From: a virus
Lineage: Duplodnaviria > Heunggongvirae > Uroviricota > Caudoviricetes
Direction: 5' to 3' (one strand)
Virus record (IMG/VR): IMGVR_UViG_3300026549_000047
Coordinates: 52,158-116,157 of that record
Length of the DNA stretch: 64,000 nucleotides
Below are positions 4,424-25,759 of the stretch, one piece after another. Both the position numbers and the translations under genes were made by a program. The notes under the pieces were generated by a model. The model was not told the DNA's origin. It was given only the letters and a program-made list of their open reading frames with translations, and did no database searches. Each line of letters begins with the position of its first letter. Within the stretch, counting starts at the first letter, position 1.

Positions 4424-4666
4424 CTAATCAAACCACTCAAGGCAACCTTCTGTGGATGCCCATATTTCTTCTTCTCCTGGGCGACCATGTCCTGCGTTCG
4501 TTGGACGTCCATGTTTTTCTGCCCACTCACGATATCCACAGTGACCTGATTCACTAGGTCTCTCCGAATCAAACCACATACATTGTCCACAACATGCATG
4601 ACCATAGTAGTGTTCGTGATCTTGGATCTCCTCATCGAAAATCCTTTTTCCTATCATGTTTCTCAT
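4424..4666 (-). CDS. small Cys/His-rich hypothetical protein
   Basis: 80 aa with HACCGQCMW...HCGY pattern; overlaps the alternative ORF 4369..4635, which is less protein-like. Confidence 0.35.
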   Translation of the reverse strand: MRNMIGKRIFDEEIQDHEHYYGHACCGQCMWFDSERPSESGHCGYREWAEKHGRPTNAGHGRPGEEEIWASTEGCLEWFD

Positions 4667-4667
4667 A

Positions 4668-4886
4668 CTAGTCGTCGTTATAATCCCTACAGTCGTCTGC
4701 CGGGGTTAGTGATTCAACCGCCTTTCCTTTCTTATGACACCACCTTTGATGCCAACCAATAGGATGAGAATCGCAGTCCCTGTTAGTGGGATCGCATACT
4801 GAATTCCAGCATCTTCCACATACTCGTCCGTATTCGTCTTCAGAGATTGCGTTGTCTAAGATCTGTTGTTTATTTGTTTTCTTCAT
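4668..4886 (-). CDS. small Cys-rich hypothetical protein
   Basis: 72 aa; CGRCWNSVCD...CDSH...WCH; good gene packing. Confidence 0.4.
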   Translation of the reverse strand: MKKTNKQQILDNAISEDEYGRVCGRCWNSVCDPTNRDCDSHPIGWHQRWCHKKGKAVESLTPADDCRDYNDD

Positions 4887-10432: not shown

Positions 10433-11746
10433 TTAGAAAGGCAGTCCATTAGCACCACCGCCAAAGCCTCCTGCGAAAGAGGGCTGTGAGAAAGGTGCAC
10501 TCTGGGGCTGAGCAGCCTGCTGTGCCGTACCTGCAACGGGTGCTCCCGTCAAGGGATCAATGTGTGATGCGGCGGGATTCTGGAATGGATTGTCGTTACG
10601 ATCAGCAACGGTCTGACCATTCTGAACTACATTATTGTTGCCGTATCCACCTACACCCTGTGCTGATGGTGCAGCCTGCACATTCATCTGAGCCAAGATA
10701 GGATCATTTGTCTGTGGGGTTGCAGCAGCTTTAGCAGCCTGGTTAGCGAGAGCGGTCTGATTGGTAGCCTGGATAGCTTCCTCAACAGAAGTTCCGTTCT
10801 GCTTAGCCATACGAATCTTAGCCAACTGGTCGGTCATGAATTCAATGGCCTCCTGAATGAGAGACTTATTGAATAGACGACGCTGATCAGCAGGTACAGA
10901 TTCGTCCTCACGATTAGCCTGCCAGCCAAGGAATGTTTCAACTGGATTCTGCATCAACTCCATGTCACTGGGGTCAATACTAATACCGTTCAGGAATGCT
11001 TCTGCTCCGAGTGTGTGACTAACCGAGATATTAAATCCGGGGCCATCGCTCTTGCTAATATTAAGAAGCATGAATCCTTTACGACCTGTCAGTTCGCGGT
11101 TGTACACATCAGCCAGCCATGCATCGTTACCAATGCCAGAGGTGATGTTAGTGTCAGCAATGCTATTACCAACAATCTCAGGGAACGCTTTACTCGTCAT
11201 CACAAACAGAGCATTAAAGTTCTGACGGACAGGAGTACGAGTATCCTGAACTGACCAGAAGTTAGGACAGTTACCGTAGAACACGGTATAGTTCTTACGA
11301 CGGATCAGACTACGAACAGTAGGATCAGTTGCATTGTTCTTGGCATCGAGCTCTGTAAAGAGTTCCTCCCAGACAGCATAAGCCTGACGCAAAAGTGACT
11401 CATCGGAAGCCGTCAATGACGAAACCTCACGACCTGTCGTCTGGTCTTTGATGGTATAGGCCTGCAGAGGCAAGAACTTAATCCAAGCCTGATAATTCTG
11501 CTCCTGACCATCGGCCGTTACATTACGACGAGGCATGCTAATCTCACGTGTATTAGCCAGACTCACATAAGGGAATCCACTAATTACGGAAGGGATTGGC
11601 AGAATCTGATAACGACCCATGTTAGTTGGGGCCGACAGATATACACGCTCAATCATTCTCTTTTTCTCGAAATTGCGCTTCTTATTAGAAGGGCTCAAAC
11701 TCTGTAATTTCTCCAAAAAGCTGTCTACATTACTAAACTGATTCAT
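10433..11746 (-). CDS. ssDNA-binding protein, T4 gp32-like (tentative)
   Basis: QNYQAWIKFLPLQ resembles gp32 GNGQAVIRFLPSK. Long Gln/Ala/Gly-rich C-terminal tail ends ...GGANGLPF, reminiscent of SSB C-terminal tips. It sits beside the replication genes. Confidence 0.45.
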   Translation of the reverse strand: MNQFSNVDSFLEKLQSLSPSNKKRNFEKKRMIERVYLSAPTNMGRYQILPIPSVISGFPYVSLANTREISMPRRNVTADGQEQNYQAWIKFLPLQAYTIKDQTTGREVSSLTASDESLLRQAYAVWEELFTELDAKNNATDPTVRSLIRRKNYTVFYGNCPNFWSVQDTRTPVRQNFNALFVMTSKAFPEIVGNSIADTNITSGIGNDAWLADVYNRELTGRKGFMLLNISKSDGPGFNISVSHTLGAEAFLNGISIDPSDMELMQNPVETFLGWQANREDESVPADQRRLFNKSLIQEAIEFMTDQLAKIRMAKQNGTSVEEAIQATNQTALANQAAKAAATPQTNDPILAQMNVQAAPSAQGVGGYGNNNVVQNGQTVADRNDNPFQNPAASHIDPLTGAPVAGTAQQAAQPQSAPFSQPSFAGGFGGGANGLPF

Positions 11747-11950
11747 AAAAAATTGTTTGTTTTAAAATAAAGATAATTTTATTAAATAAATAATTCTTCT
11801 ATGAGGAGGCTCTTCACTTAATGTCCTCCTCGTGTATAAGAATTTCACTTTCCGTTGGAGCGCGTTTTTTACGTTTCAGAGAACCAGAAAACCCTATACG
11901 TGATATAAAGGGAACCGGGCGACCCAAAGAGCCCGGATAAGTATAATAAT

Positions 11951-14593
11951 ATGAGAAGAATAGTAATTATTGATCAAATTGAAACACCAAATTATTTAGC
12001 GTATTTTGGATGTGGACTAGGAAACGAGATCTATACTGTTCAGTATCTTCAGGAACTTGAAGAAGATAAACTAAAACAGGTACTAGCTCTCGGACCCGGA
12101 GATGCTGCCATGCTTGTTGGAGCAGAGCCTTTCCGGTATCTCAGACAGTTTTATCATTTCGGAATTCGTGGTGAGAACTACTTTGATTGTGCTAAACTTC
12201 ATCGTTTAAGTATAGAGGGTGGAGCGTACGTTAAAGAGATTATCGACTTTCCAGATCAGAAAACTATTGATGAATTCCTGTCCCCAGAGTTTACACGGAA
12301 AATTGATTTTCCAGGATTTAAGTATAAAGTCATTCATGACTGGGAGGGAGCACTTCGATTCTTAGATTGGTGTGATTCACTTCCCCTAGATACGGACTTT
12401 GGATTTGACTATGAGGCATCTGGTATGCCTATGGAGAAGGTCTTTGCTGTGTCGGGGTATGCTATTTCTACTGAGAAGTATGCGGGGTTTGTTAGCTTGA
12501 CAGACATACGGCATCAAGTGGGAGAAGATAGTAAGGAGTATCGAGAAGTTTTGGATAGAACAGCTAAACTTCTAGTCAAAAGACAAAAACATATGTGGAC
12601 CTATAACCTTCAGTATGAGTATCAGGTAAGTCATAGACTTTTAGGAGTTGATCTATACGATTTATGTGATGCATCTGTGGTTAATGTCCTTGATGGAAAT
12701 CACGAGAAGCACTTCTCTCTCAAATTTACTGCCCAGTTTGTCTTGGGAGTTGATGTTTGGGATTCTGATTTCGATCGTCTTAGTGAACTTATCGAGCACA
12801 TGATTTTGGAGGAGGTTGGTAAACTTAAGAGAGATAAACATTTCGTCGTTAAGATTACTCCCGATACCTTTGAGAATACTCCCGAGTGGGAAGAGATTTG
12901 TGCTAGATATCCTGAATATGTAGATGAATTTAGAGCATTGATTCTTGAGTATTGGGGCAATCAGTTTATGCCTATCCCAAGTGAGATTCTCGGTAAATAC
13001 TGTTGTCTTGACTCTTTCTATACCCTGATGATCTACCTTAAGAAGAAGCCAGAGTATACACAAGAAGCTTTCGAAGTATTTATGGATAACCTTCGACTGG
13101 GTGCTCGTTTGATGAGCCATGGTCATTATATTGATGAGAATTATCGCTTGAAATATGATAAGTATTGTCGACAAATGATGGCTTGGTCGATTACATGGAA
13201 TACGAGAGCTCTTTGTTGGTTGAAGATGGAGAAGCATAAAGCTAAGGCTACAAATATAAAGAGATATAAAGACATTGCCATTAAGCTCCTAGAGGAAGGT
13301 AATTTCTTCCAGGGCAATTCCGTTGAGATTGTTAAGTACCTTTTAAGTACTAATATCGATACTATGGACACCACTGAAACCGGCTTAAATGAAGGTCAGA
13401 TTAAGATGAAGTATGGTGAGAAATTCGCCGATCAATTCGTTCAGCTGGTCAAAGATGCTATGGTTGAGGTGAAAATGAAAGGCAAGATTGATGAAGGAAT
13501 TGTCAGGAAGAAAAAGATTCTTGGAGTTTTAGCGGAAAATGCTAAACACTTGTTAGGTCTAGATCAACTTAAGTACGATGACAATGGAAAGATCAATTCC
13601 AAGCACATTGAGCTTGAGAAGTATATGTACTACAAAAAAGTTTATGAAGAGCTTGAGAGAATAAATAATAGACAGCTTAAGGATGTTAATAATATCCCTG
13701 ACACTATCTATATCTTTGGACAGAAGATGGAAATCTTAGAGTATGCAAACTACTTGCAAGATAATTATTTCCAGTGTCTTAGCCCAGAGAAAAACGATAA
13801 AATTGTCTATGATATGATGATGAATCAACAGCTTCCCGGTCTTCGTGCTAAGACAGCCTTCTTAGGTGCCATTCTTGAAAGTACCCAGCAGCTACCAGAA
13901 ACAGATAAGTTTTATAGTAGCAGAAACATAACTGACATTAATGTTGGTTTTGCCGAGATGATGAAGGAGTGGGAGACCTACTGGAAGAACGTAGATAGCG
14001 ACGGCATGATCCATTGGCATAGTTCTTTATATCCAGACAAGGTGTTTAACATCGCTATGGAACTATATCGTAGTCCTAAAACAAGTTCAAAAGTTTCAAC
14101 AAAGGGCGTTAAAGCGACTCTTTATGAAGTAGTTGACAAGGTAAAAGATATATGGACTGATTTTGCTGGATTTAATTGCCAGACACAGTTCTTCCCCGAA
14201 TATGCAAAGGATTATGAGAACTATGAGAGTCCATTTGATCCGATTCTGGACTTGAGTGATGAATTCTACTTCATGAGAAAGTTCACTATAAACTATCTAG
14301 TTTTCAAAAAGCATGCTAAGATGTTGTCAGTGTATGCTGGAGAAGACGGTATGTTTAATAAGAGGGCTAAGTATGTAATCGAAGATGAACACCACATTCC
14401 GATTCGAGATGCGGATCCTGATGAGCCAGGAGCAGTGAAGAAAAACTTTACTCCATACGAAGTGCTTATGAAGTCATCAAAGCGCTGGAGCTCAAGCTTC
14501 CACACGATTATCAGTCATGGAGATATAAAGAACTGTCTTGTACCTGCCCCAAGCTGGGATGAAAATGGAGACATCGTATATGGAGGCGCTGAT
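11951..14593 (+). CDS. DNA polymerase, family A: exon 1 (3'-5' exo domain to motif A ...GDIVYGGAD)
   Basis: The 895 aa ORF has an Exo I-like DFGFDYEASG block. It ends ...CLVPAPSWDENGDIVYGGAD(Q), aligning to the Pol I AF.AP....L.SADYSQIELR block just before motif A. The track's tail LLTYFDINKTSVT is predicted intron read-through. Confidence 0.75.
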
Positions 14594-16163
14594 CAGTTAC
14601 TGACATATTTTGACATTAATAAAACTAGTGTCACGTAGAAGTGATTCTATGTTAAAACAAACTTACTATATGCTGGAAAGACTTGTTAGGTCTCTGGTAC
14701 TAGTCGATTTAGTCACGACAGTAATAATCCAGAGAATAGAGTTAATCAGCAGGTTTAAGAAAAAGAAGAAATTAAAATAATATTAATTACGAAGAAATAT
14801 ATTATGGGAGCACTAGAGGATTTTGAAAAATTTTTGAAGGAGTCTGATATTAAGTCTCGTATAGACCTAAGTAAAAGATTTCCTTCAGTATATGATAGAT
14901 TCCTATTACTAGACGAGGAGTTTAAAGATAAGCTCTTACCATCTTTGGTAGTGCCAATAATATTGAGTGGCATAGATGAGTACAGTAATTTTATAAAAGA
15001 TCATAATATTACTACTAGAACCCAATTTTATAAAAGTTTTCCCAATGTATATAAAAGATTCATTAAAGACTTTAGTAAAGAAGACCAAGATAGGCTTCTT
15101 CCTAAACTAAAGAATACTTATGGTGATGAATCAGGTACTTATAGTTATTTGGAAAAATTTATTGAGGAAAATGATATAAAAAGTAGAACAGAATTTAGTA
15201 GTAGATGTGATGCACTTTATAAAAAATTCTTAAAATTACCAAAAAATGAACAAGAAGAACTGCTTTCTCAAAGCAAGTTTTCTGGAATAAAAGATTTTGA
15301 GAGTTTTAGTCAGTTTATAATAGATAATAACATTATTTCCAGGAAAGATTTTGATAAAAGATTTTCTAGATTGTATATGAAATTTTTAGAGATATTTTCA
15401 CCGGAGGAACAAGAAAGTTTACTACCTTCAAGTAGAGAAGATTTGTCTAGTCTTGTTGATTATTCTGGATTTTCTGATTTTATAAATAAAAATAATATAT
15501 TATCTAGGCGGGATTTTCAAAACAAATCAACTGCTGGATATCATAGGTTTAAGACCATGCTTAGTGAAGAAGAGCAAGATCTATTACTACCTATTTGTCA
15601 TTCGTCCGTTGGAGAATTATTTCTTATGGATTTATTCAATAAAAATGGATTTAAATTTTGTATACAAAAAGTATTTCAAGACTTATTCGGAAAAGGTAGT
15701 AGACCATTAAGGTATGATTTTTATTTACCGGAGTATAATATTTTGGTTGAATATCACGGTCGTCAACATTTTGATCTGGATGATAATTTTTACAATGAAG
15801 ATGCTATACTCAGGGATAAGGTGAAATTTGAATATGCAAAATTAAATAACATCTCTATACTCTATTTTACAAATGAGGTAGAGGTATATAATAAGTTTGG
15901 ATATTTCACCGAGGTTATAACTGATAGTGATATCCTTATAGAGAAAATAAAAGAGATTGGTCTGACTAACCAATTGAATTCTTAAACCCCAACGACTATC
16001 CCAATAGTGGGAGTACACTTGAAATCGTTAAGTGGAAACGGTAAGAATCTCATCTCTGAGATTAAGATATAGTCTGATCTGTATGGAGACATACAGGAGT
16101 TCGTCTTAGTTTAGATTAAGTGAGAACCGGGAGAAGTAACGTACCTCTTGAACACAAATGTAG
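14594..16163 (+). mobile_element. group I intron 1 of DNA polymerase gene (about 1.57 kb), carries a homing-endonuclease ORF
   Basis: Interrupts motif A. The ORF 14804..15985 overlaps the P3-P6 region. R element CCAACGACTATCCC at 15989-16002 and S element AAGATATAGTCTGA at 16065-16078. Downstream exon resumes ...SSAEVKAAGYASGD. Exact splice sites ambiguous: 5' at 14593 or 14598, 3' at 16158-16163. Confidence 0.6.
14804..15985 (+). CDS. intron-encoded homing endonuclease candidate: five tandem ~50-aa helical repeats + C-terminal DUF559/Vsr-like PD-(D/E)xK nuclease domain
   Basis: Five repeats of the pattern DIKSR.DFSKRF...Y.KFL....EEQ..LLPS. C-terminus RYDFYLPEYNILVEYHGRQHFDLDD...RDK matches the DUF559 (E.DG..H...D..RD) restriction-endonuclease-like motif. 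Confidence 0.65.
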   Translation: MGALEDFEKFLKESDIKSRIDLSKRFPSVYDRFLLLDEEFKDKLLPSLVVPIILSGIDEYSNFIKDHNITTRTQFYKSFPNVYKRFIKDFSKEDQDRLLPKLKNTYGDESGTYSYLEKFIEENDIKSRTEFSSRCDALYKKFLKLPKNEQEELLSQSKFSGIKDFESFSQFIIDNNIISRKDFDKRFSRLYMKFLEIFSPEEQESLLPSSREDLSSLVDYSGFSDFINKNNILSRRDFQNKSTAGYHRFKTMLSEEEQDLLLPICHSSVGELFLMDLFNKNGFKFCIQKVFQDLFGKGSRPLRYDFYLPEYNILVEYHGRQHFDLDDNFYNEDAILRDKVKFEYAKLNNISILYFTNEVEVYNKFGYFTEVITDSDILIEKIKEIGLTNQLNS

Positions 16164-16337
16164 TAGTGCGGAAGTAAAGGCAGCTGGGTATGCAAGTGGA
16201 GATCCTGACTTAATTTCGCGCTTCAATGATGGAACTGATATTTACATATACAGTGCAAAACTCTACCTTGGTGATGAAGGATGGGGGAAGTTAACTAAAA
16301 AACAACAAAAAACCTGGCGCAAACGTTTCAAGACCAT
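16164..16337 (+). CDS. DNA polymerase family A: exon 2 (motif A remainder to first half of motif B)
   Basis: Translation ...SSAEVKAAGYASGDPDLISRFNDGTDIYIYSAKLYLGDEGWGKLTKKQQKTWRKRFKTI aligns with Taq/E. coli Pol I YSQIELRxxAHLSGDENLIxxFxxGxDIHxxTAxxxFG...RRxAKxINF. Confidence 0.6.
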
Positions 16338-16622
16338 ATGTTGATGTGGCATAGTTAAGTAATTAACTAGTGAAAAGGTTGTGAACTCGTAAATACGAGG
16401 TGTGCTAAAAAAATAGTGCTAACGGTGGAAAGCTAAGTTCCTAAAAAATTAGGAATATGCCAATACCGTGCTAAGCTTGGAGTTAATCCGAGAAAGTGTA
16501 ACGACTATCCCTTCATGGGAGTAGGTTTAGGGTGAAATTCCCTATTCCGAAGTGCAACCTATCCGCAATAGTACGGATAATGATATAGTCTAATCCCAGA
16601 AAGAAATGATGGGTAGTAAATG
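16338..16622 (+). mobile_element. group I intron 2 of DNA polymerase gene (285 nt, ORF-less)
   Basis: Splits motif B: exon 2 ...RKRFKTI | FLGVLYG exon 3. Intron follows a U at 16337 and ends with G at 16622. Length 285 is divisible by 3, consistent with both exons sharing a genomic frame. R GTAACGACTATCCC (16503-16516), S GATATAGTCTAAT (16589-16601), then a P9 hairpin ATCCCAgaaagaaatgaTGGGTA. Confidence 0.7.
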
Positions 16623-17025
16623 ATTCTTGGGCGTTTTATATGGCCTAGGTAAGCAAAGCCTTGCGGAAAGACTTGATGCTTCTGTTGAAGAGGCAGAGGA
16701 TATTATACAAGGTCTTTATAAATCTTTCCCACAGCTCAGACATTACGTGGATTCACAGGGACAATATCCTCTAGATCACGATGGATATATTAGAACAATG
16801 TTAGGAGATAAACTTAGACTGAGAGAGTACTATGATTATCTTCCTAAAGCAAAAAATGATAGAGAAAAGAATAACTTAATTGCTCGTATTAAACGACTTG
16901 GTGTGAATCTTCCTATACAAGGAGGTACAAGCACTATAATGGCTCATGGATTTGATAATAATATTCGTGTGTCTATTAAGGAGGGATGGAGTCAGCCGTT
17001 ACAGCCAATTATAACGGTTCATGAT
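16623..17025 (+). CDS. DNA polymerase family A: exon 3 (motif B GVLYG ... PIQGG ... motif C VHD)
   Basis: FLGVLYGLGKQSLAERLDASVEEAEDIIQGLYKSFPQLRHYV...NLPIQGGTSTIMAHG...IITVHD matches Pol I NFGVLYG...FP....Y...A.N.PIQG.AAD....HDE. The ORF track starts at an internal TTG. Confidence 0.7.
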
Positions 17026-17152
17026 CAGATTAGGTCATGTAATTAAGAAGAATTGCTGGAATCTTAATAAGAAATCAGCAAACATAATTAATGTTTCAAT
17101 GACTGTGTATTTTAGCAAGAAGATACAGTCTGCCCTCAAGTTGAGGCTTGAG
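17026..17152 (+). mobile_element. group I mini-intron 3 of DNA polymerase gene (about 127 nt), inserted in motif C between HD and E
   Basis: Exon 3' end CAUGAU pairs perfectly with intron IGS GUCAUG (17033-17038), including the U.G at the splice site. P element AAUUGCUGGAAUC (17050-62), Q AAAUCAGCAAAC (17075-86). R UUCAAUGACUGUGUAU (17094-109) pairs with S AAGAUACAGUCUG (17122-134), a P7 covariation GACUGU/ACAGUC. P9 hairpin CCUCAAguUGAGG. Intron ends at G17152, so the spliced reading is ...ITVHD|ENTSNTNLIPVEH, restoring HDE and a LVFEVH-like strand. Confidence 0.7.
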
Positions 17153-17551
17153 GAAAATACGTCTAATACAAATCTCATCCCTGTTGAGCATATTTTTGAT
17201 ATACTTGCTTTCTATCAGAAGAATTATACGGATTATTGTGCTCAATGTGGACCTAAAATTCGTCTACTATTTGACTTGCTTGTAGGATTTGGTTATGAAT
17301 CAGCATGTCCTCTTAAGCAGATAGATGAAAATACGATAGAATTTTCAGGTCCTGCATCTAATATAATCTTAATTTACGATAAAATCATGAAGTGTAAGCA
17401 CATAAAGGTTGAGTGTAATAAGACTAGAGAAGAGATTATGGATTCTAGAAAGATGATCACTGATCCATATTATAGAACTATTCTCGAAAGTGGATGTTCT
17501 ATAGAAAAGGATACTTCTGATATCAAGGTTCAGTTCCATAAATTAAGCTAA
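17153..17551 (+). CDS. DNA polymerase family A: exon 4 (C-terminal ~130 aa after motif C)
   Basis: ENTSNTNLIPVEHIFDILAFYQKNY...KIRLLFDLLVGFGYESA aligns with Pol I ELVFEVHKDDVDAVAKQIHQLMEN...LDVPLLVEVGSGENW, with matching spacing. The ORF track's 17021..17551 has a spurious N-terminus made of intron sequence. Confidence 0.65.
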   Translation, partial: ENTSNTNLIPVEHIFDILAFYQKNYTDYCAQCGPKIRLLFDLLVGFGYESACPLKQIDENTIEFSGPASNIILIYDKIMKCKHIKVECNKTREEIMDSRKMITDPYYRTILESGCSIEKDTSDIKVQFHKLS

Positions 17552-17552
17552 A

Positions 17553-17612
17553 TTTATAGTCTCTGTTGTAATAGTTAAAATTACTATTATATGGAGACTA
17601 TTATTTTTTAAA
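17553..17612 (+). terminator. hairpin terminator candidate after DNA polymerase gene
   Basis: 8-bp stem TATAGTCTC...GAGACTATA with an internal GTAATagttaaaATTAC hairpin, followed by TTATTTTTTAAATATTT. Confidence 0.35.
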
Positions 17613-17623
17613 TATTTAAAATT

Positions 17624-18886
17624 ATGTTATATTTAGACTGTTGGAAATCTATGAAATATTATCGAAAAGATCAAGGAATGTTAGAAGATATTTCAGAAGT
17701 AGAGATATCTATTTCTGGAAAATTTAGAATAAAAAGAAGTAAACGAGATATTTCTGTCTATGATATTGGTCAAGGATATCCGGGCATTCTTTTGATCCGA
17801 GATGGTAGAGTTTCTAGATATCGTGCTCATGTAGCTATGATATCCTCTTTCGGTAGTTATGATTTTTCTAAATCGGGTTTAGTTGTAGATCATATAAATC
17901 GAAATATATGTGACTATAGATTATGTAATCTTCGATTAGTTACTGTCACTGAAAATAATAAGAATAGAGTTGTATTTAGAAAGAGCAGAGCATATATACT
18001 AGTTAATAGTAATGGGGATATAATAAAATCTGCTACTTTTCCAAACGAAGGGTCGAAGTTATATACCACTTTAAATAGGTTTAGGGAGAATAGGAAAGAT
18101 TATCTAGTAATCTCTTTATCAGAAGACTGTTTTTCGAAAATAAAAAATGTGAATAATATAAGCTATTTATTAAATCAAACTTGGAAAAAAGTAGGAACAA
18201 GCAATTTATACGTTGGGGAGAATGGTCTTCTGAAAATGAGTACGAACTTTGGACTCTATTTATCTTTCGGATCTATAAATAAAAATGGTTATTATGTGTT
18301 CAATAATAGGACTGCCAGGAAAGACAATTCTCAGTACGTTCACATACTAGTAGCTAAATATTTCCTTAATAGCGGTCAACCAATCGATAGTAAAAAGTTC
18401 TCCGTAGACCATATAGATACTAATAAAGAGAATAATAATTACCATAATCTTAGAATAGTATCATTAAAGGATAATATTAATAATCAGAATACTAAGATAA
18501 AACAAGAAAGATCTATTTCTATTAATTATCTAGGAGAAATTTATAAAATTCGAAGTGTTTTGGAGTTCTCAAAAATGACAGGACATAGTAGATCATCCAT
18601 AATGAAATGGATTTCAGATGGGATTAATATGAGAGGTCCTGCTGAAATTTTAGAAATTAAATACATTAGTAAAGAAGAAAAGTATGATGCGTTTAATAAT
18701 AATGAATTTATAGATGATATAAATTTTTTAAAATTTACTAGTATGGAAGATCTGAAAAGTATTAGATCTATAAACGAATTTATTAAAGAAAACAAGATAC
18801 GTGATATGTCTTTATTAAAAATTCAACTCCTGAATCAAATAAAGGATCTCGGTCTGTTAGATAGTATAAAATTATATTCCGAATAA
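17624..18886 (+). CDS. free-standing HNH homing endonuclease with two HNH-like motifs
   Basis: GYPGILLIRDGRVSRYRAHVAMISSF...VVDHINRNICDYRLCNLRLVTVTENNKN is a classic phage HNH pattern. A second motif is FSVDHIDTNKENNNYHNLRIVSLKDN. HTH-like MTGHSRSSIMKWI. Located immediately downstream of the intron-rich polymerase gene. The real start may be the Met near 17678. Confidence 0.7.
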   Translation: MLYLDCWKSMKYYRKDQGMLEDISEVEISISGKFRIKRSKRDISVYDIGQGYPGILLIRDGRVSRYRAHVAMISSFGSYDFSKSGLVVDHINRNICDYRLCNLRLVTVTENNKNRVVFRKSRAYILVNSNGDIIKSATFPNEGSKLYTTLNRFRENRKDYLVISLSEDCFSKIKNVNNISYLLNQTWKKVGTSNLYVGENGLLKMSTNFGLYLSFGSINKNGYYVFNNRTARKDNSQYVHILVAKYFLNSGQPIDSKKFSVDHIDTNKENNNYHNLRIVSLKDNINNQNTKIKQERSISINYLGEIYKIRSVLEFSKMTGHSRSSIMKWISDGINMRGPAEILEIKYISKEEKYDAFNNNEFIDDINFLKFTSMEDLKSIRSINEFIKENKIRDMSLLKIQLLNQIKDLGLLDSIKLYSE

Positions 18887-18904
18887 AAAAAATTAGAGAA
18901 AGGG

Positions 18905-18937
18905 ACTTCGTGTCCCAATCTCTTTTTATTTAATCCC
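18905..18937. terminator. bidirectional rho-independent terminator
   Basis: GGGACttcgtGTCCC hairpin followed by AATCTCTTTTTATTT on the plus strand, with an A-run preceding it for the convergent minus-strand gene. Confidence 0.5.
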
Positions 18938-19639
18938 CTTCAGCTTTTTCACTGTTTCCTCGTCTAGGAAATGTCCCATGCCATACGTGCTTTTGATCGG
19001 CTTCTGCTTTGGTTTTTTCTCCTTGGCAGGTAGACCGGTATCCTCACGTGTTTTGGCACGGATTATCCAGGCTATATCCTTTTCCTTCTCTTCACCACGA
19101 ATGCAGTCAGAGACGAACAGACTTAGCGCCCATTCAGCGGCATTGCTTAGGAGTTTCTCACTAGTGGCGCTGCAATAAGCTGTTGTACCAGTTCGTACTT
19201 CAATAGGCATTTTGTTGAGGAGTTTGTTGATTCGTTTCTTCTCCTCCTTAGTCCTCTCCTTCCGACCAGCCTCGGTCATTGCCTTGTCTACTAATGCTTC
19301 TTCTGCTTTTACCTCGTCGTGTGACTTGATAATGTTATTAGCACCAGCCACTCTGATGTTAAGAATACAGCATCGGTTTATATTGTTCTTAACCTGCTCC
19401 TCTGTGAAAGAGGCTACCAATGTCCCGGTATTGATGGGCAGGAAACCGCGAATGAGGTGTTTTACAAACTCACGTGAACCATCGGTTTTGTTCCAGAGTT
19501 CACAGATTTTCTGATATGCTTTGTTAATCTGATCCTCGTTCGGCTGTCCAAGTTTCTGGGGATGATCTTTTGTGTAGAGCTTAATTGGAGTTTTCTCATT
19601 TTGCTCTTTAAGTTTCTGTACTAATTCCGAATTGTTCAT
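18926..19639 (-). CDS. hypothetical protein
   Basis: 237 aa ORF; Lys/Glu-rich; no recognisable catalytic motif. Confidence 0.5.
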   Translation of the reverse strand: MNNSELVQKLKEQNEKTPIKLYTKDHPQKLGQPNEDQINKAYQKICELWNKTDGSREFVKHLIRGFLPINTGTLVASFTEEQVKNNINRCCILNIRVAGANNIIKSHDEVKAEEALVDKAMTEAGRKERTKEEKKRINKLLNKMPIEVRTGTTAYCSATSEKLLSNAAEWALSLFVSDCIRGEEKEKDIAWIIRAKTREDTGLPAKEKKPKQKPIKSTYGMGHFLDEETVKKLKGIK

Positions 19640-19703
19640 GATGTTTTATGAGTTTAATGTTATCAAGTATAAGGAAAAGAGCGTAACCACCTTATAGGTA
19701 GAT

Positions 19704-20258
19704 ATGATAGAAAGAAAATTAATTATTGGATTAGGAAATCCAGAAGAAGAAAGAAAAGAAACCAGGCATAATATTGGCTGGATGTGTATTGATAAGTTAG
19801 TAGGGGACGGTCAGTATATAGAAAAAGAGTATGGCTTAGTCTTTGAAACCCCTGAAGCCATTTATCTTAAGCCAACAGTTGGTATGAATTCTAGCGGTGA
19901 GGCTGTCAAGGCTGCTATGACTGAATATGAGATTGAAGCTAAAGATATTCTTGTGATCGTTGATGACCTTGACCTAGATTTTGGTCGCCTCAGATTAAAA
20001 GGAAAAGGCAGCACTAGACATAATGGCTTAAAGAGTATTGAGGAATGTATTGGCACTCAGAAATATGATCGCCTGAAGTTTGGAATAGGTCACGATTTTC
20101 CGGAAGGTGGACAATTTGATTATGTCCTTTCACCATTCACAGAAAATGAAGTTGCTCAACTCCCATACCTCATTGAGAGGGTGTCGGATGGAATTAAGAA
20201 CCACTACTTAGTGGAACCAAACAAGGACAAAGTAATGAACGTGATTAATAATGGATAA
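19704..20258 (+). CDS. pth: peptidyl-tRNA hydrolase (Pth family)
   Basis: LIIGLGNPEEERKETRHNIGWMCIDKL matches the Pth N-terminal signature LIVGLGNPGxxYxxTRHNxG. GSTRHNGLKSI matches GHNGL(K/R)SI. Correct length of 184 aa. Confidence 0.8.
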   Translation: MIERKLIIGLGNPEEERKETRHNIGWMCIDKLVGDGQYIEKEYGLVFETPEAIYLKPTVGMNSSGEAVKAAMTEYEIEAKDILVIVDDLDLDFGRLRLKGKGSTRHNGLKSIEECIGTQKYDRLKFGIGHDFPEGGQFDYVLSPFTENEVAQLPYLIERVSDGIKNHYLVEPNKDKVMNVINNG

Positions 20259-22251: not shown

Positions 22252-22343
22252 AAGGGTAATCTCTTTATTTTTTCCCTCTGAAACGTAAAAAACGCGTTCA
22301 GGAAAGGGTATAATTCTTAAGCAATGAAGAAAAATAATACATC

Positions 22344-22414
22344 GCGGAGTGGAGAAGCTGGTATCTCGTCAGCCTCATAAGCTGAAGATCGTGGGATCGT
22401 GACCCACCTCCGCA
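22344..22414 (+). tRNA. tRNA-Met or tRNA-Ile2 candidate, anticodon CAT
   Basis: Cloverleaf: acceptor GCGGAG/CTCCGC; D stem GAGA/TCTC with GG in the loop; anticodon stem TCAGC/GCTGA with loop C-U-CAU-AA; 5-nt variable loop; T stem GTGGG/CCCAC. The T-loop ATCGTGA is non-canonical (A54...T58). Confidence 0.45.
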
Positions 22415-22472
22415 ACTATAAAAGAGATGATAACAATTTGTTAATAATTAACTTAAATTTTAAAAAGAAAGA

Positions 22473-23504
22473 ATGAGAAAATTTATTTTGACAATGGCTC
22501 TGATTCTTGGAATTGGAGTAAGTGCTAACGCACAGAAGATTGCTACAGAGAATAGTAATGCCTTTGATAACATCGGTATTGGCCTGACAGGCGGTGTATC
22601 GACTCCCTTGGATTTCAATTCTATGTTTCCGGTTAACCCGAACATAGGTTTGAAGATTACGAAGGACTTTACTCCTGCTTTCGGTATTCAGATCGAAGGT
22701 CTTGCATTCCTTAATGACAATCATTTCACGGACCTCAAGACGACTGTTAAGGCAACTAATGTAAGCTTGCTTGGTGCAATTAATTTGTCTAATGCCTTGT
22801 TTGGTTATAAAGGTACCCCCAGAACATTTGAGGTATCTCCTGTGGCTGGTATTGGTTGGCTGCATGAGTGGAATACGTCGGTTAATAGCTTATCTAGTAA
22901 GACTGGTATTGACTTTGCATTTAACCTGGGCAAGGCTAAGGCACATTCTATTGTTCTGACTCCAGCTATTTACTGGAATCTTAATAGCCTTAAAGAGATT
23001 CAGTTTAATAAAAATCATGCGCAGTTGGCACTTAATCTTACTTACATCTATCACTTTAAAACATCAAATGGTACTCATCATTTCAAAACCTATGACATTA
23101 GTGCCATGGAAAGTGAGATTAATTACTTGAGAGGTCGTGTAGATGAGTTAGAGAATAAACCTATTCCTGTTGCAACAAATGCAGTGGCTGCAGTAGAGAC
23201 CAAGACTGTTGAAAAAGTTGTTCCGGCTGAGTCTCAGTGGTATATTCAATTTGCTAAGAGCAGTTCTGCACTGACTGACGAGGCTAAAGAGGTTCTTGAC
23301 AAGGTTTCAGCAGAGGCAGTGGATATTGTAGGTACAGCATCTCCCGAAGGTTCAGCCGAATTCAATCAGGCATTATCGGAGAAGCGTGCTGCAGTTGTAG
23401 CAGACTACTTGACGAAGCGTGGTATAAAGGTGAATAGTTGGGTTGGTAAGGGTTCAACTGGAGACTCTTCTAATCGTTTGGCTATCATTAGCGTAGTTAA
23501 GTAA
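22473..23504 (+). CDS. OmpA-family outer-membrane protein (signal peptide + beta-barrel-like region + OmpA C-terminal peptidoglycan-binding domain)
   Basis: Signal MRKFILTMALILGIGVSANAQ. C-terminus VDIVGTASPEGSAEFNQALSEKRAAVVADYLTKRGI carries the OmpA-C-like TD.G....N..LS..RA..V motif. Confidence 0.75.
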   Translation: MRKFILTMALILGIGVSANAQKIATENSNAFDNIGIGLTGGVSTPLDFNSMFPVNPNIGLKITKDFTPAFGIQIEGLAFLNDNHFTDLKTTVKATNVSLLGAINLSNALFGYKGTPRTFEVSPVAGIGWLHEWNTSVNSLSSKTGIDFAFNLGKAKAHSIVLTPAIYWNLNSLKEIQFNKNHAQLALNLTYIYHFKTSNGTHHFKTYDISAMESEINYLRGRVDELENKPIPVATNAVAAVETKTVEKVVPAESQWYIQFAKSSSALTDEAKEVLDKVSAEAVDIVGTASPEGSAEFNQALSEKRAAVVADYLTKRGIKVNSWVGKGSTGDSSNRLAIISVVK

Positions 23505-23750
23505 TAAAAAGATTTGTGGAAGGTGACTAGTCGGTAGTTACTTAAAAGGTTCGAATCCTCCTTCCACAGCAAAAAAGCTGGAAATGAGGTGTTCCTAGCT
23601 ATATGAGAGAGGGCAACGGGGTAAAATATTGGACTATAATGCTAGCAATAGTCTCCTTAAGCTGACAAATTTGTTTTCATGGTTTTAGGGTTGTGGTCAA
23701 CCTAAGGATAAAACAATAGACAACCTCTCCAAAATAAAAACCCCGTTTAT

Positions 23751-23822
23751 GGACCGGTAGCTCAGTGGTAGAGCGGATGTTTGAAGGGCATCGCGTCGGT
23801 GGTTCAATTCCATCTCGGTCCA
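23751..23822 (+). tRNA. tRNA-Phe (GAA)
   Basis: Canonical cloverleaf: acceptor GGACCGG/TCGGTCC; D arm GCTCAGTGGTAGAGC; anticodon loop TT-GAA-GG; T arm GGTGGTTCAATTCCATC; discriminator A. Confidence 0.85.
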
Positions 23823-23828
23823 CGAGTT

Positions 23829-25613
23829 ATGAAGAAGCTTATTTTATTTGTAACTTCTTTTGCTTTAATGATGTCCTGTATGAGTCACGACCTCGATACA
23901 ACACAGGGGCAAGGAAGTGATGTGAAAGAGAACGTTAAAAATATTTTTGGCGTTGAGTTTAGTGAGAACCAAGATTGGAAGACAGCTTTTTCTAGCAGTG
24001 TAAGTGTTCGAGTTAATCCTGGTGATGGTGTCAATAAAATTCAAATTATGGCACTTATCAAAGAGGATGACGAGAACCAATGTCTTAAAGTTCTCAACGA
24101 ATTTAACTTAACCAGAGAGACCTTTGTTAAGCTAAATTATGATGCTCCTAAGGATAACTTAGGTTTGTACGTTACATATATAACTTCTTCTGGATCTTAC
24201 CATTTCGTAGAGATCAAGGGAGATGAGGTTAGTATGCCCTCAAAGACTAGGAGATTGACAAGATCGTTTAACCCTAGTGGATATAATTTGCCGACAGGAG
24301 ATTTCTTTATTACATCCTCTGAGGAATCTTATGCCAATAAACGTGGCTGGGTTCCTGGTGAAATGCTTTATCAGTATTCCACTCAGAAAATGGATGCTGA
24401 AGAATATGATGATGAGTATAAAGAAACCCTTCGACTCTTAGTATTCTCTTATTTTAAGAACGGTAGAAAGTATAATAACCTTCCACTTGTTAAGCAGACT
24501 GGATATTACAATGAGAAAATCTATCCTATCACAACGGGAGATGATCCGATTGTATTATCACCAGTCTACAAGAATGATGGTGGTTATCAGGAGGTTGAAA
24601 ATTCTGACTTGTACTACTATTACTTTAAAGAAGAGGACCTAGGAAGTGATCCAGTTGGTTATATTGAGAGTCTTCCTAAATACAAAGCCATTCAATTGAA
24701 TGAATGTATTAAAGGAGATGATGTAATTAGTAAACATGCTTCCTACGCACTTATGTATTGGGGAGACGGTGTTCCTGTAGTAGGTGAGACTCAAGGATCT
24801 TTTCAGTTCCCGAAGGGGTACAAGATCGGTTTCATGATTCGAGCTAAAACGGAAGCAGAAGGAAAAAAGAAGCAGGGTGAACTTTATGGTGATGGTCGCC
24901 TTAATAATCATGTTAATAACTATGGAAACTTCAAGTCATCTAAGCTTGGCGAGGATGGTCCTAGAATGGCATGGTTAACGGTAAACAATAAAATGCTTCT
25001 TTGTTGTGAATCAGGAACAGACACAGATTTCAATGATATTATCTTTGAAGTAGAGGGAGGTATTGAAGGACTTATCGTCATCCCTGAGATCGAATCTAAT
25101 TTCTACGTATTCTGTTATGAAGACCAGAGATTAGGTGATTATGATCTTAATGATGTAGTTTTGAAAGGACGAAGACTTAGTGACACGAAAGTAGAGTATA
25201 CACTTATGGCTTGTGGTGCTTTGGATGAGCTCTTTATCTATAATGTAGAGGGCAAGCGAATAAAGCATGACAAGGAAGTACATTCTATATTTGGTAGAAC
25301 AAAGCCAGAATTCGTTAATACCCTTAAGAATGATAACACCCCATTCGTAGTTGATACAATTACAGTGACTAGTAGTTTCAGTTTTCTTAATGCTGATACT
25401 CAACCTTACCTGTACGACAAAACTAAGAATTGGGAAGTTCGAATAGCAAGAGAGGGACAAGATCCTCATGCTATTATGATCCCCTACGACTTTAAGTGGC
25501 CCTTAGAAAGAATTTGTATTAATAGAGCTTACTTGAAGTTTAATGAATGGGGAACAGGTTTAGTTACCTCTACGGATTGGTATAAATATCCGGAGGAAGA
25601 CAAAGTATGGTGA
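23829..25613 (+). CDS. putative lipoprotein (large, secreted)
   Basis: ATG at 23829 gives MKKLILFVTSFALMMSC, a lipobox with Cys. About 595 aa; no catalytic motif recognised. The ORF track start at 23781 overlaps tRNA-Phe and is unlikely. Confidence 0.6.
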   Translation: MKKLILFVTSFALMMSCMSHDLDTTQGQGSDVKENVKNIFGVEFSENQDWKTAFSSSVSVRVNPGDGVNKIQIMALIKEDDENQCLKVLNEFNLTRETFVKLNYDAPKDNLGLYVTYITSSGSYHFVEIKGDEVSMPSKTRRLTRSFNPSGYNLPTGDFFITSSEESYANKRGWVPGEMLYQYSTQKMDAEEYDDEYKETLRLLVFSYFKNGRKYNNLPLVKQTGYYNEKIYPITTGDDPIVLSPVYKNDGGYQEVENSDLYYYYFKEEDLGSDPVGYIESLPKYKAIQLNECIKGDDVISKHASYALMYWGDGVPVVGETQGSFQFPKGYKIGFMIRAKTEAEGKKKQGELYGDGRLNNHVNNYGNFKSSKLGEDGPRMAWLTVNNKMLLCCESGTDTDFNDIIFEVEGGIEGLIVIPEIESNFYVFCYEDQRLGDYDLNDVVLKGRRLSDTKVEYTLMACGALDELFIYNVEGKRIKHDKEVHSIFGRTKPEFVNTLKNDNTPFVVDTITVTSSFSFLNADTQPYLYDKTKNWEVRIAREGQDPHAIMIPYDFKWPLERICINRAYLKFNEWGTGLVTSTDWYKYPEEDKVW

Positions 25614-25684
25614 AAATAAAATTGGGTTCATATAAAGTTATTATAATTCCAAACCAGATACCCAACTGTTAGGGAATTATTTAA

Positions 25685-25757: not shown

Positions 25758-25759
25758 CT

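What the first reader, a model, noticed from the sequence alone, without database searches (positions are those of the whole stretch)
11951..17551. Family-A DNA polymerase gene built from 4 exons; ORF-track fragments misannotate it
Exon 1 ends in motif A (GGAD). Exon 2 (16164-16337) carries the rest of motif A and RKRFKTI. Exon 3 (16623-17025) starts FLGVLYG and ends VHD. Exon 4 (17153-17551) supplies E + LIPVEH... Intron 1 (about 1.57 kb) carries a modular endonuclease ORF. Intron 2 (285 nt) obeys both the 5' U and omega-G rules, with a length divisible by 3. A free-standing double-HNH endonuclease gene (17624..18886) sits right after the gene. Automated annotation would call at least four separate proteins and a 'truncated polymerase'.
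Basis: partly seen in the sequence, partly recalled or inferred. Interest (0 to 1): 0.75.

Follow-up and report, generated by a model that had tools for sequence, protein, structure and literature searches.

The report
Polymerase gene split by three introns
A giant gut-type phage carries its DNA polymerase gene in four pieces separated by three group I introns, an arrangement already reported for such phages, but the third intron is only 136 bases long and belongs to a stripped-down intron family that standard RNA annotation does not detect.

Summary
A 97%-identical intron-less phage contig (L001) fixes the exons at 11951-14616, 16161-16337, 16623-17025 and 17162-17551. Joined, they give 1211 aa, gap-free and 1203/1211 identical to the uninterrupted protein P0001 (Pfam DNA_pol_A, 80.8 bits).

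- **Motifs.** Motif A is YFDI|SSAEVK, not GGAD. Motif C is VHD|S, not VHD+E.
- **Introns 1 and 2.** Intron 1 (1544 nt) holds a homing-endonuclease ORF in its P6 loop. Intron 2 is 285 nt. Both are ordinary phage group I introns.
- **HNH gene.** The downstream double-HNH gene is a separate optional insertion.
- **Intron 3.** It is 136 nt and shows P1 with U·G, P10, P3 (weak here; clearest across the family and in allelic variants), P4-P6, P7, P9 and a terminal G. It has no P2 or P8.
- **Family.** Three more ORF-less copies sit in the RNA polymerase beta-like gene(s) of this window, and dozens occur in related 200-400 kb phage contigs. Covariation is strong, yet Rfam scores intron 3 at 10 bits.

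Group I introns splitting polymerase genes of jumbo gut phages were published in 2026, so the gene is a new member of a known kind. The P8-less mini-intron class looks like a new variant. Splicing is inferred, not shown.

The parts
11951..14616 (+). Exon 1 of the family A DNA polymerase gene (889 codons; ends ...TYFDI, with the last codon completed by the first base of exon 2).
   Evidence: blastn against intron-less L001. Spliced translation is 1203/1211 identical to P0001.
14617..16160 (+). Intron 1, group I, 1544 nt. P1 is TGACAT (14611-14616) with GTGTCA (14628-14633), giving U·G at the 5' splice site. P6 (14752-14760 with 15980-15988) encloses the ORF. P7 is 15994-15999 with 16069-16074. 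The terminal G is 16160.
   Evidence: Insertion relative to L001, L088, L091 and L092. With the ORF removed it is 69% identical to the ORF-less intron at the same site in L019, which scores 57.5 bits on Rfam RF00028. Helices were read from the sequence.
14804..15985 (+). Intron-1 ORF, 393 aa. About five repeated ~55-aa N-terminal modules, followed by a C-terminal nuclease-like domain.
   Evidence: phrog_9084 'homing endonuclease' E 1.4e-17 (residues 252-362); phrog_559 and phrog_4538 also hit. No Pfam hit. Five near-identical cluster members on other contigs.
16161..16337 (+). Exon 2 (SSAEVKAAGYASGDPDL...RKRFKTI): the rest of motif A through the first half of motif B.
   Evidence: Pfam DNA_pol_A positions 160-213.
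16338..16622 (+). Intron 2, ORF-less group I intron, 285 nt. P1 is CCAT with GTGG, with U·G. P7 is 16503-16508 with 16585-16590. The terminal G is 16622.
   Evidence: Insertion relative to L001, L088, L089, L091 and L092. Rfam RF00028 full-length match of 36.9 bits, E 4e-8 in a narrow scan; this is below the gathering score of 50. Fold z-score -4.9.
16623..17025 (+). Exon 3 (FLGVLYG...PIITVHD): second half of motif B through the motif C aspartate.
   Evidence: Pfam DNA_pol_A positions 216-337.
17026..17161 (+). Intron 3, a 136-nt mini group-I-like intron without P2 or P8.
- P1: 17020-17025 (CATGAT) with 17034-17039 (GTCATG), U·G at the splice site.
- P10: 17029-17033 (ATTAG) with 17163-17167 (CTAAT).
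- P3: 17043-17048 with 17110-17115.
- P4: 17054-17059 with 17075-17080.
- P5 hairpin: 17060-17074.
- P6 hairpin: 17081-17095.
- J6/7 plus P7: 17096-17106.
- J8/7: 17120-17124.
- P7': 17125-17130.
- P9: 17134-17141 with 17146-17153.
- Terminal G: 17161.
   Evidence: Exact 136-nt insertion relative to L001, L091 and L092. Present at 136 nt in four other samples. Family covariation. Covariance model R1 scores it at 77 bits. Rfam RF00028 gives only 10.3 bits. Fold z-score -3.7.
17162..17551 (+). Exon 4 (SNTNLIPVEH...QFHKLS, stop at 17549-17551): C-terminal 129 residues of the polymerase.
17553..18884 (+). Optional 1332-bp insertion directly after the polymerase stop codon. It carries a free-standing HNH endonuclease gene (17624-18886, 420 aa, two HNH_3 modules).
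   Evidence: Absent from L001, L087, L091 and L092; present in L090. Pfam HNH_3 E 1.7e-17 with two stretches. Many HNH PHROGs hit.

Best explanation
Window 11951-17551 is the single DNA polymerase gene (family A, 1211 aa) of a roughly 380-430 kb jumbo phage. It is transcribed as one precursor containing three group I introns. Each intron pairs its internal guide sequence with the end of the upstream exon (P1, with a U·G wobble at the splice site) and with the start of the downstream exon (P10). Each ends in a guanosine and is removed by the two guanosine-initiated transesterifications typical of group I ribozymes, which restores the reading frame.

- **Intron 1** is a standard phage-type intron whose P6 loop has been invaded by a homing-endonuclease gene.
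- **Intron 2** is a standard ORF-less intron.
- **Intron 3** is a drastically reduced relative. It keeps P1, P10, P3, P4-P5-P6, P7, J8/7, P9 and the terminal G, but has lost P2, P7.1/7.2 and P8.
- All three introns and the downstream HNH gene are independent, optional mobile insertions. Sister genomes carry them in different combinations.

Shown here: the exon boundaries, the optional nature of each insertion, the RNA structures and their covariation, and the protein family.

Inferred, not shown: that splicing actually occurs (above all for intron 3), that it is autocatalytic rather than protein-assisted, and how the ORF-less introns move.
For: **Boundaries and protein**
- blastn of the window against the 97%-identical contig L001 leaves exactly four unmatched blocks: 14617-16160 (the blastn blocks end at 14613 and resume at 16162; refined by sequence reading), 16338-16622, 17026-17161 and 17553-18884.
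- The joined exons give 1211 aa with no gap and 1203/1211 identity to P0001.
- P0001 scores 80.8 bits on Pfam DNA_pol_A (cut-off 34.3) and matches Taq, Bst and Klenow polymerases in the PDB.
- More than 40 uninterrupted homologues of 1150-1217 aa exist.

**Optional insertions**
- L091 and L092 lack all insertions.
- L088 has only intron 3.
- L087 has introns 1-3 but no HNH gene.
- L090 has intron 3 plus the HNH gene.

**Group I identity**
- Intron 2 scores 36.9 bits full-length on RF00028.
- The ORF-less homologue of intron 1 in L019 scores 57.5 bits.
- A 302-nt intron three bases upstream of the intron-3 site in L014 scores 58.5 bits and shares the P4, J6/7-P7 and J8/7-P7' sequences with intron 3.

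**Intron 3 is a structured RNA under selection**
- 17 distinct family members show 96.6% paired cells against 80.5% in shuffles (0/500) and at most 41% when partners are slid.
- 11 of 20 pairs change on both sides, including all four scored P3 pseudoknot pairs.
- P3 strands pair with their own partner better than with non-self partners, p = 2e-6. P5 and P6 give 0/2000 shuffles.
- The two substitutions seen in other samples (T18C, G22A) turn both P3 wobble pairs into Watson-Crick pairs.
- Four minis at four different sites each have a P1 (with U·G) and a P10 complementary to their own exons (read).
- Two minis restore conserved RNA polymerase beta motifs, and Pfam RNA_pol_Rpb2_6 aligns across one junction.

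**Persistence**
- The intron-3 allele occurs as 8 full-length ORF variants on at least 17 contigs, with exon 4 intact.

**Literature**
- Jumbo gut ('Jug') phages are reported to carry about 18 group I introns per genome, to have polymerase genes frequently split, and to show metatranscriptome support for 37 of 76 predicted introns (PMC12880540).
Against: - No RNA data were available, so splicing of none of the three introns is demonstrated for this phage.
- Intron 3 lacks P8 and P2. P8 is part of the conserved P3-P7-P8-P9 domain of every described group I subgroup (established knowledge).
- Its own P3 is weak in this window (-1.0 kcal/mol, not better than non-self pairings).
- The minimum-free-energy fold pairs J8/7 into an extended P7 hairpin.
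- Rfam does not recognise intron 3 (10.3 bits, E = 2), and intron 2 is below the Rfam gathering score.
- An ATG-initiated ORF (17021 or 17099 to 17551) covers exon 4, so a two-polypeptide polymerase cannot be excluded from sequence alone.
- Intron-less alleles L091 and L092 have the same flanking codons as intron-containing ones, so there is no exon/guide-sequence co-variation within the population at site 3.
Confidence: 0.8

Rival explanations
1. Intron 3 is a decayed remnant of a ~300-nt group I intron and no longer splices. The polymerase is then made as two polypeptides that assemble non-covalently: residues 1-1082 plus QIRSCN, and a C-terminal piece started at ATG 17099 or 17021. Alternatively the gene is defective in these genomes.
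For: - P8, P2 and all peripheral elements are missing, and Rfam gives 10.3 bits.
- A ~300-nt relative sits three bases upstream in L014 and L019.
- An ATG-started ORF covers exon 4 and is called as a gene in public data.
- The likely hosts (Bacteroides or Phocaeicola for the related Jug phages, PMC12880540) are known not to rely on Shine-Dalgarno sites (my background knowledge, not checked in the paper), so the lack of one is not informative.
Against: - A remnant would not keep compensatory changes. P3, P4, P5, P6 and P7 covary across 17 members at many different insertion sites.
- The junction sequences J3/4, J6/7 and J8/7 match the RF00028 consensus (searches compared).
- Every mini has a guide sequence fitted to both of its own exons, plus a terminal G.
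- The two population variants in P3 improve pairing.
- The peptide encoded by the intron in the exon-4 frame is not conserved between the window and L056 minis.
- The break would fall inside the motif C hairpin, between the catalytic Asp and the invariant Ser.
- In L088 the mini-intron is the only interruption of an otherwise intact gene.
Confidence: 0.14
2. The 136 nt are skipped during translation, by ribosomal bypassing or a programmed frameshift, rather than removed from the RNA.
For: The insert is short, changes the frame by +1, and a stop codon follows 18 nt into it (17044-17046), superficially like phage T4 gene 60 (established knowledge).
Against: - There are no matching take-off and landing codons: GAT at 17023-17025, but ACG|TCT at the landing side.
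- 136 nt is far longer than the 50-nt T4 gap.
- The conserved pseudoknotted group I core and the terminal G have no role in bypassing.
- The same element family occurs with endonuclease ORFs of about 1 kb inside it.
Confidence: 0.02
3. The interruptions are assembly or sequencing artefacts, such as chimeric contigs or indels.
For: The window comes from an unknown, probably metagenomic, assembly.
Against: The same introns at the same positions recur in independent assemblies from ENA, Logan and JGI samples, with small sequence differences.
Confidence: 0.01

Closest known systems
Group I introns and homing endonucleases splitting essential genes of jumbo gut ('Jug') phages (Sci Adv 2026, PMC12880540; preprint PMC12363816)
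   Same: - Similar kind of phage: 360-402 kb gut jumbo phages. IMG/VR contigs in that size range carry a polymerase 54% identical to this one.
- Many group I introns per genome, polymerase genes 'frequently split', and HNH and other stand-alone endonucleases.
- Splicing supported by metatranscriptomes for 37 of 76 predicted introns.
   Different: [quoted passage not shown]
- Its main text does not describe a P2- and P8-less architecture or exon-level maps of the polymerase gene. Its supplement was not available here.
- The contigs of the window's own lineage are 384-428 kb, so membership of the named Jug groups is untested.
Group I introns in family A DNA polymerase genes of Bacillus phages SPO1/SP82/Bastille (with HNH endonucleases I-HmuI and I-BasI) and of T7-like phage ΦI (from memory, not checked here)
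   Same: A self-splicing group I intron inside the palm and fingers motifs of a phage family A polymerase gene. HNH-type homing endonucleases are associated with it, and intron-plus and intron-minus relatives both exist.
   Different: Those genes have one intron. Here there are three in 2.5 kb, relatives use at least seven different insertion sites, and one intron is a 136-nt mini form.
Compact bacterial group I introns such as the ~205-nt Azoarcus tRNA-Ile intron and the ~250-nt phage Twort introns (from memory)
   Same: Minimal peripheral decoration, with the core formed by the P1-P2, P4-P6 and P3-P9 domains.
   Different: Those introns retain P2 and P8. The mini-introns here (136-139 nt) have neither, and only 2-5 nt lie between the 3' strand of P3 and J8/7.
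[quoted passage not shown]
   Same: Natural introns far below the usual group I size that keep P1, P7 and P10. One is reported to splice in vitro by the group I pathway.
   Different: The fungal ones lack P3, P4, P5, P6 and P9 as well, and sit in rRNA. The phage minis keep the whole P3/P7 pseudoknot and the P4-P6 domain, sit in protein-coding genes, and form a mobile multi-copy family.
Free-standing homing endonucleases next to ORF-less introns ('collaborative homing', cyanophage psbA / F-CphI; from memory)
   Same: An ORF-less group I intron lies in a gene and a free-standing endonuclease gene lies immediately beside that gene.
   Different: No target-site evidence was obtained here. Intron 3 occurs without the HNH gene (L087, L088), so any cooperation is not obligatory.

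Membership tests
Family A (Pol I / T7-type) DNA polymerase | Significant match to the family profile over the palm and fingers | tested here: met
   Pfam PF00476 scores 80.8 bits against a cut-off of 34.3, covering residues 882-1083 of the intron-less protein. PDB hits to Taq, Bst and Klenow polymerases have E values of 1e-12 to 1e-7.
Family A (Pol I / T7-type) DNA polymerase | Motifs A (D..S..E), B (R...K......YG) and C (HDE) | tested here: inconclusive
   Motif A (FDISSAEVK) and motif B (RKRFKTIFLGVLYG) are present and invariant. Motif C is VHDS in all 18 aligned homologues: the catalytic Asp is present, but Ser replaces the second carboxylate.
Group I intron (introns 1 and 2) | 5' splice site after a U that forms U·G with the internal guide sequence (P1), and a G as the last intron base | tested here: met
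   Intron 1: TGACAT|...GTGTCA and ...AAATG|. Intron 2: CCAT|...GTGG and ...AAATG|. Boundaries were fixed by intron-less alleles.
Group I intron (introns 1 and 2) | Conserved core P3-P9, scored by Rfam RF00028 at or above the gathering score (50 bits) | tested here: inconclusive
   Intron 2 gives a full-length match of 36.9 bits, E 4e-8, below 50, and nothing in the 9-kb scan. Intron 1 was not scored directly because it holds a 1.2-kb ORF; its 69%-identical ORF-less homologue in L019 scores 57.5 bits.
Group I intron (intron 3 and the mini family) | P1 with U·G, P10 with the 3' exon, and a terminal G | tested here: met
   Intron 3: CATGAT|/GTCATG, ATTAG/CTAAT, and G at 17161. The same holds, with different sequences, for the minis at 35587-35449, 34861-34725 and in L056.
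Group I intron (intron 3 and the mini family) | P3/P7 pseudoknot, P4-P6 domain, and conserved J3/4, J6/7 and J8/7 | tested here: met
   Covariation in P3, P4, P6 and P7: 96.6% paired, 0/500 shuffles, 11 pairs with double changes. P5 and P6 give 0/2000 shuffles. The junction sequences equal the RF00028 consensus (AAUUGC.GGAA, UUCAA.GACUA, GAAGAUAUAGUCU; searches compared).
Group I intron (intron 3 and the mini family) | P8 helix between the 3' strand of P3 and J8/7 | tested here: not met
   Only 2-5 unpaired nucleotides lie between P3' and J8/7 in all parsed ORF-less minis. RF00028 scores intron 3 at 10.3 bits, E = 2. It is therefore filed as group-I-like or a reduced derivative, not as a canonical member.
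Group I intron (all three) | Guanosine-initiated self-splicing | not testable with these tools
   No RNA or biochemical data are available. Only published metatranscriptome support for related phages in general exists (PMC12880540).
HNH homing endonuclease (17624-18886) | HNH_3 domain, plus presence/absence polymorphism at a fixed site | tested here: met
   PF13392 E 1.7e-17 with two stretches. The 1332-bp block is absent from L001, L087, L091 and L092 and present in L090. Cleavage specificity was not tested.
Intron-encoded homing endonuclease (14804-15985) | Nuclease domain of a known homing-endonuclease family, located in a peripheral loop of a mobile intron | tested here: inconclusive
   PHROG families annotated as homing or HNH endonuclease hit residues 252-362 (E ~1e-17), but there is no Pfam match. 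The ORF lies in the P6 loop, and an ORF-less version of the intron exists in L019.

The most novel reading that the evidence does not exclude
The 136-139-nt elements are a previously undescribed structural subclass of group I intron. They are P2-less and P8-less, yet retain the P3/P7 pseudoknot, P4-P6, J8/7, P9, P10 and the terminal G. They splice accurately in vivo out of essential protein-coding genes (DNA polymerase, RNA polymerase beta-like subunit) of jumbo gut phages, and they spread between sites by retargeting their guide sequence. If they self-splice, they would be the smallest natural group I ribozymes with a complete core, and would show that P8 is dispensable.
Probability: 0.4. Interest if true: 0.8.

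Novelty: new variant of a known kind. Interest (0 to 1): 0.6.

Why it matters
**Annotation.** The polymerase of this phage lineage is deposited as three to five unrelated 'hypothetical proteins'. The corrected exon map restores a 1211-aa enzyme.

**Detection.** Rfam misses the mini-introns entirely and finds the two ordinary introns only in narrow scans. Intron counts in jumbo-phage genomes based on existing covariance models may therefore be underestimates, and many 'split' genes will stay unexplained.

**Ribozyme biology.** A naturally selected 136-nt group I core without P2 and P8, present in many diverged copies, is a ready-made test of how small a group I ribozyme can be and of what P8 contributes. 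Compact self-splicing modules are also of practical interest, for example in permuted-intron RNA circularisation.

All of this depends on showing that the minis splice, which was not done here.

Tried and rejected
The joins 14598|16164 and 17025|17153 give a 1207-aa protein. Alignment to P0001 and to L001 DNA places the joins elsewhere, so they were rejected.
- **Rfam, wide scan.** An E-value scan of 11000-20000 found no family at all. Narrower scans were needed.
- **GenBank phages.** Megablast of the locus, and blastn of the mini core, gave no match. tblastn of exon 1 gave only two remote polymerase hits.
- **Bacterial and archaeal genomes.** An exact-pattern scan of 185,579 species genomes for the P8-less core gave 0 hits.
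- **Synonymous CAT/CAC difference at site 3.** I considered it evidence for exon/guide co-adaptation. It was dropped because intron-less L091 and L092 also have CAT.
- **Automatic junction refinement.** My script mis-ranked site A, so boundaries there rest on direct sequence comparison.
- **MAFFT alignment A2.** It is not in structural register for P5 and the inner part of P6. Those helices were therefore tested with a custom end-anchored count rather than with the count of structure pairs.
- **Literature.** Searches for a P8-less or miniature phage group I intron found nothing specific. The library does not cover all journals, and the Jug-phage supplement is not held.
- **Unused tools.** Structure prediction, the exhaustive representative-protein search and the metagenome scan were not used. 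The sequence evidence already settled the protein family and the exon map.

Full report
**What is at the coordinates**

The + strand between 11951 and 17551 holds four ORF fragments.
- Two of them hit Pfam DNA_pol_A at consecutive profile positions, 160-213 and 216-337.
- GC content falls from about 0.40 in the coding pieces to 0.25-0.30 in 14650-15950 and 17350-18850. That fits foreign insertions.
- The surroundings are a large phage genome: a tRNA cluster, an SSB-like gene and a peptidyl-tRNA hydrolase gene.

**Fixing the exon boundaries**

Among them was P0001, 1211 aa and 98% identical.
- Many hits are truncated exactly at intron sites: 883 aa, about 900, about 935, about 1030 and about 1050 aa.
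- The contig encoding P0001 (L001) is 97% identical to the window at the DNA level over 17.8 kb.
- It aligns as five blocks that leave out 14617-16160 (the blastn blocks end at 14613 and resume at 16162; the exact ends were refined by reading the sequences), 16338-16622, 17026-17161 and 17553-18884.
- Joining 11951-14616, 16161-16337, 16623-17025 and 17162-17551 gives a 3636-nt ORF. Its 1211-aa product is gap-free and 1203/1211 identical to P0001.

- Intron 1 is 14617-16160 (1544 nt). The junction is ...TYFDI|SSAEVK, so the motif A aspartate is in FDI, not in GGAD.
- Intron 3 is 17026-17161 (136 nt). The junction is VHD|SNTN.
- The family has an invariant VHDS in place of the usual HDE, so no Glu is supplied by exon 4.

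**The protein**

P0001 scores 80.8 bits on DNA_pol_A. It matches Taq, Bst and Klenow polymerases in the PDB and DNA polymerase PHROGs.

**Introns 1 and 2**

Both follow a U that can pair with a G of an internal guide sequence, and both end in G.
- Intron 2 matches Rfam Intron_gpI over the full model at 36.9 bits (E 4e-8) when scanned alone. That is below the gathering score of 50, and it was invisible in the 9-kb scan.
- Intron 1 carries the 393-aa ORF inside a 9-bp P6 helix (14752-14760 with 15980-15988).
- With the ORF removed, intron 1 is 69% identical to a 303-nt ORF-less intron at the same site in the related contig L019. That intron scores 57.5 bits.
- The C-terminal 110 residues of the ORF hit PHROG families annotated as homing or HNH endonuclease (E ~1e-17). 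Pfam is silent.
- Codons flanking site 1 differ synonymously between alleles: GAC ATT in intron-containing ones (2 of 2) and GAT ATC in intron-less ones (4 of 4). This is what one expects near a homing site.

**Optional, independent insertions**

| Locus | Intron 1 | Intron 2 | Intron 3 | HNH gene |
|---|---|---|---|---|
| window | yes | yes | yes | yes |
| L001, L091, L092 | no | no | no | no |
| L088 | no | no | yes | no |
| L089 | not covered | no | yes | not covered |
| L087 | yes | yes (273-nt variant) | yes | no |
| L090 | not covered | not covered | yes | yes |

Another cluster member (P0133) reads through sites 2 and 3 but starts inside intron 1. Across the wider polymerase family at least seven insertion sites are used, and L020 has five or more introns.

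**Intron 3 is the unusual part**

At 136 nt it is too short for a normal group I intron, and Rfam gives it 10.3 bits (E = 2). Even so, it has these elements:
- a 6-bp P1 with U·G at the splice site (CATGAT|...GTCATG);
- a 5-bp P10 with the first bases of exon 4 (ATTAG/CTAAT);
- a terminal G;
- sequence blocks that equal the Rfam group I consensus for J3/4-P4 (AAUUGCUGGAA), P4' (AAUCAGCA), J6/7-P7 (UUCAAUGACUGU) and J8/7-P7' (GAAGAUACAGUCU).

A 302-314-nt intron that Rfam accepts (58.5 bits) lies three bases upstream (VH|D) in L014, L015 and L019, and shares these blocks. Intron 3 therefore looks like a reduced relative that has lost several helices:
- P2;
- the P5 extension;
- P7.1 and P7.2;
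- P8;
- the distal P9 helices.

**A family, not a one-off**

The spacing 'CAAYGACTRT, 11-13 nt, AAGATAYAGTC' recurs on the minus strand of the window.
- A covariance model built from 17 distinct members finds four complete ORF-less copies in the window: 17039-17136 (+), 35476-35573 (-), 34749-34841 (-) and 38076-38171 (-).
- It also finds partial matches to versions that carry endonuclease ORFs.
- The copies at 35587-35449 (139 nt) and 34861-34725 (137 nt) interrupt an RNA polymerase beta-like gene. Removing them restores ...GSKVTNR-Y-GGKGVISKILP... and ...LIELYHIP-MYSNK....
- Pfam RNA_pol_Rpb2_6 aligns across the first of these junctions.
- An exact-pattern scan of IMG/VR found 44 loci, almost all (41) on contigs of 28-401 kb and most of these above 200 kb. 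A scan of 185,579 bacterial and archaeal genomes found none, and GenBank phages gave no match.
- One contig (L056) has two minis in its polymerase gene, at VHDS|NTN and LFDL|LAG.

**Structure support**

- On the 17-sequence alignment, the helices P3 (pseudoknot), P4, P6 and P7 are 96.6% paired. Partner shuffles give 80.5% (0/500), and slid partners give at most 41%.
- 11 of 20 pairs change on both sides, including all four scored P3 pairs.
- P3 strands pair with their own partner better than with others (mean -3.3 against -1.2 kcal/mol, p = 2e-6).
- P5 and P6 give 0/2000 shuffles in an end-anchored count.
- P7 shows the compensatory pair GACTAT/ATAGTC to GACTGT/ACAGTC.
- Between the 3' strand of P3 and J8/7 there are only 2-5 nt, so P8 is absent.
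- Four minis at four sites have different P1 and P10 sequences, each fitted to its own exons.
- In the polymerase mini itself, the only two core substitutions seen in four other samples (T18C, G22A) convert both P3 wobble pairs to Watson-Crick pairs.
- The allele is seen as 8 full-length ORF variants on at least 17 contigs, with an intact exon 4.

**Interpretation**

- The gene is a normal example of a phage polymerase gene colonised by group I introns and homing endonucleases.
- This was reported in February 2026 for 360-402 kb 'Jug' gut phages, with about 18 introns per genome, polymerase genes often split, and 37 of 76 predicted introns supported by RNA reads (PMC12880540).
- The window's lineage has contigs of 384-428 kb and a polymerase 54% identical to that of 360-400 kb IMG/VR phages. 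It is related, but I did not show that it belongs to the named groups.
- What seems not to have been described is the P2- and P8-less mini architecture. Literature searches found only much smaller, more degenerate fungal rDNA introns (PMC3160393).
- I infer that the minis splice by the group I pathway, possibly with protein help.

**Alternatives for intron 3**

| Alternative | Confidence |
|---|---|
| Dead remnant with a two-piece polymerase | about 0.14 |
| Translational bypass or programmed frameshift | about 0.02 |
| Assembly or sequencing artefact | about 0.01 |

**Limits**

- No RNA evidence was available.
- The P1 and P10 assignments for the minis were read by eye.
- P3 of the window's own copy is weak (-1.0 kcal/mol).
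- The shuffle control does not correct for relatedness, although the slid controls do.
- The supplement of the Jug paper could not be checked.

Noticed in passing
window 33440-46471, minus strand: RNA polymerase beta and beta'-like genes are broken into many ORFs; the NADFDGD motif lies in 44287-44604 and the GEME and Rpb2_6 motifs in 33.5-36.8 kb. About ten or more group-I-type introns do the splitting. Several carry HNH or other endonuclease ORFs (33763-34530, 36968-37873, 40616-41611, 43280-44248, 44664-45230) and share the same P7/short-linker/P7' core as polymerase intron 3.
   Followed up: partly
window 35587-35449, 34861-34725 and 38171-38076 (minus strand): Three more ORF-less mini-introns lie in the RNA polymerase beta-like gene(s): 139 nt, 137 nt and an undetermined length (a 96-nt covariance-model match at 38076-38171). 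The third has the compensatory P4 variant TTGCCGG/TCGGCA. Exon continuity was checked only for the first two.
   Followed up: partly
L056 (reverse strand, about 4519-4878): A 5.5-kb IMG/VR contig has two mini-introns in its polymerase gene. One follows VHDS, 3 nt downstream of the window's site. The other lies in LFDL|LAGYSYE and has a variant J8/7 (AAUAAU).
   Followed up: partly
L014/L015 12580-12881; L019 10755-11068: Full-size (302-314 nt) group I introns lie between the His and Asp codons of motif C, 3 nt upstream of the window's mini-intron. Related introns therefore occupy three adjacent positions (VH|D, VHD|S, VHDS|N) in different phages.
   Followed up: partly
L020 7001-14522: This relative's polymerase gene is interrupted at five or more sites (after residues ~851, 889, 916, 952 and 1046). 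Two of the insertions are 1.3-1.8 kb.
   Followed up: no
Polymerase residues 1080-1083 (window 17017-17025 plus 17162-17164): Motif C of this whole polymerase clade is VHDS instead of the canonical HDE. The second carboxylate is replaced by an invariant Ser in 18 of 18 homologues.
   Followed up: no
L087 1543-4130: In this otherwise near-identical allele, exon 1 is called as two overlapping ORFs (250 + 612 aa). This suggests a frameshift or sequencing error in that assembly.
   Followed up: no
L087 (intron 2): Intron 2 is 273 nt in this sample and 285 nt in the window: a 12-nt length variant of the same intron.
   Followed up: no
window 22343-28246: Seven tRNA genes (Met, Phe, Thr, Leu x2, Gln, Cys) lie on the + strand, some overlapping the ends of listed ORFs.
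   Followed up: no
window 11000-20000 (Rfam scan): The 9-kb E-value scan reported no group I intron at all. A 321-nt scan of intron 2 alone gave 36.9 bits, E 4e-8. Filter settings therefore decide whether these phage introns are seen.
   Followed up: yes
window 10433-11746 (minus strand): A 437-aa ORF lies upstream of the polymerase gene and ends in a Gly-rich tail, ...GGFGGGANGLPF, reminiscent of the C-terminal tip of single-stranded DNA-binding proteins. No family search was run.
   Followed up: no
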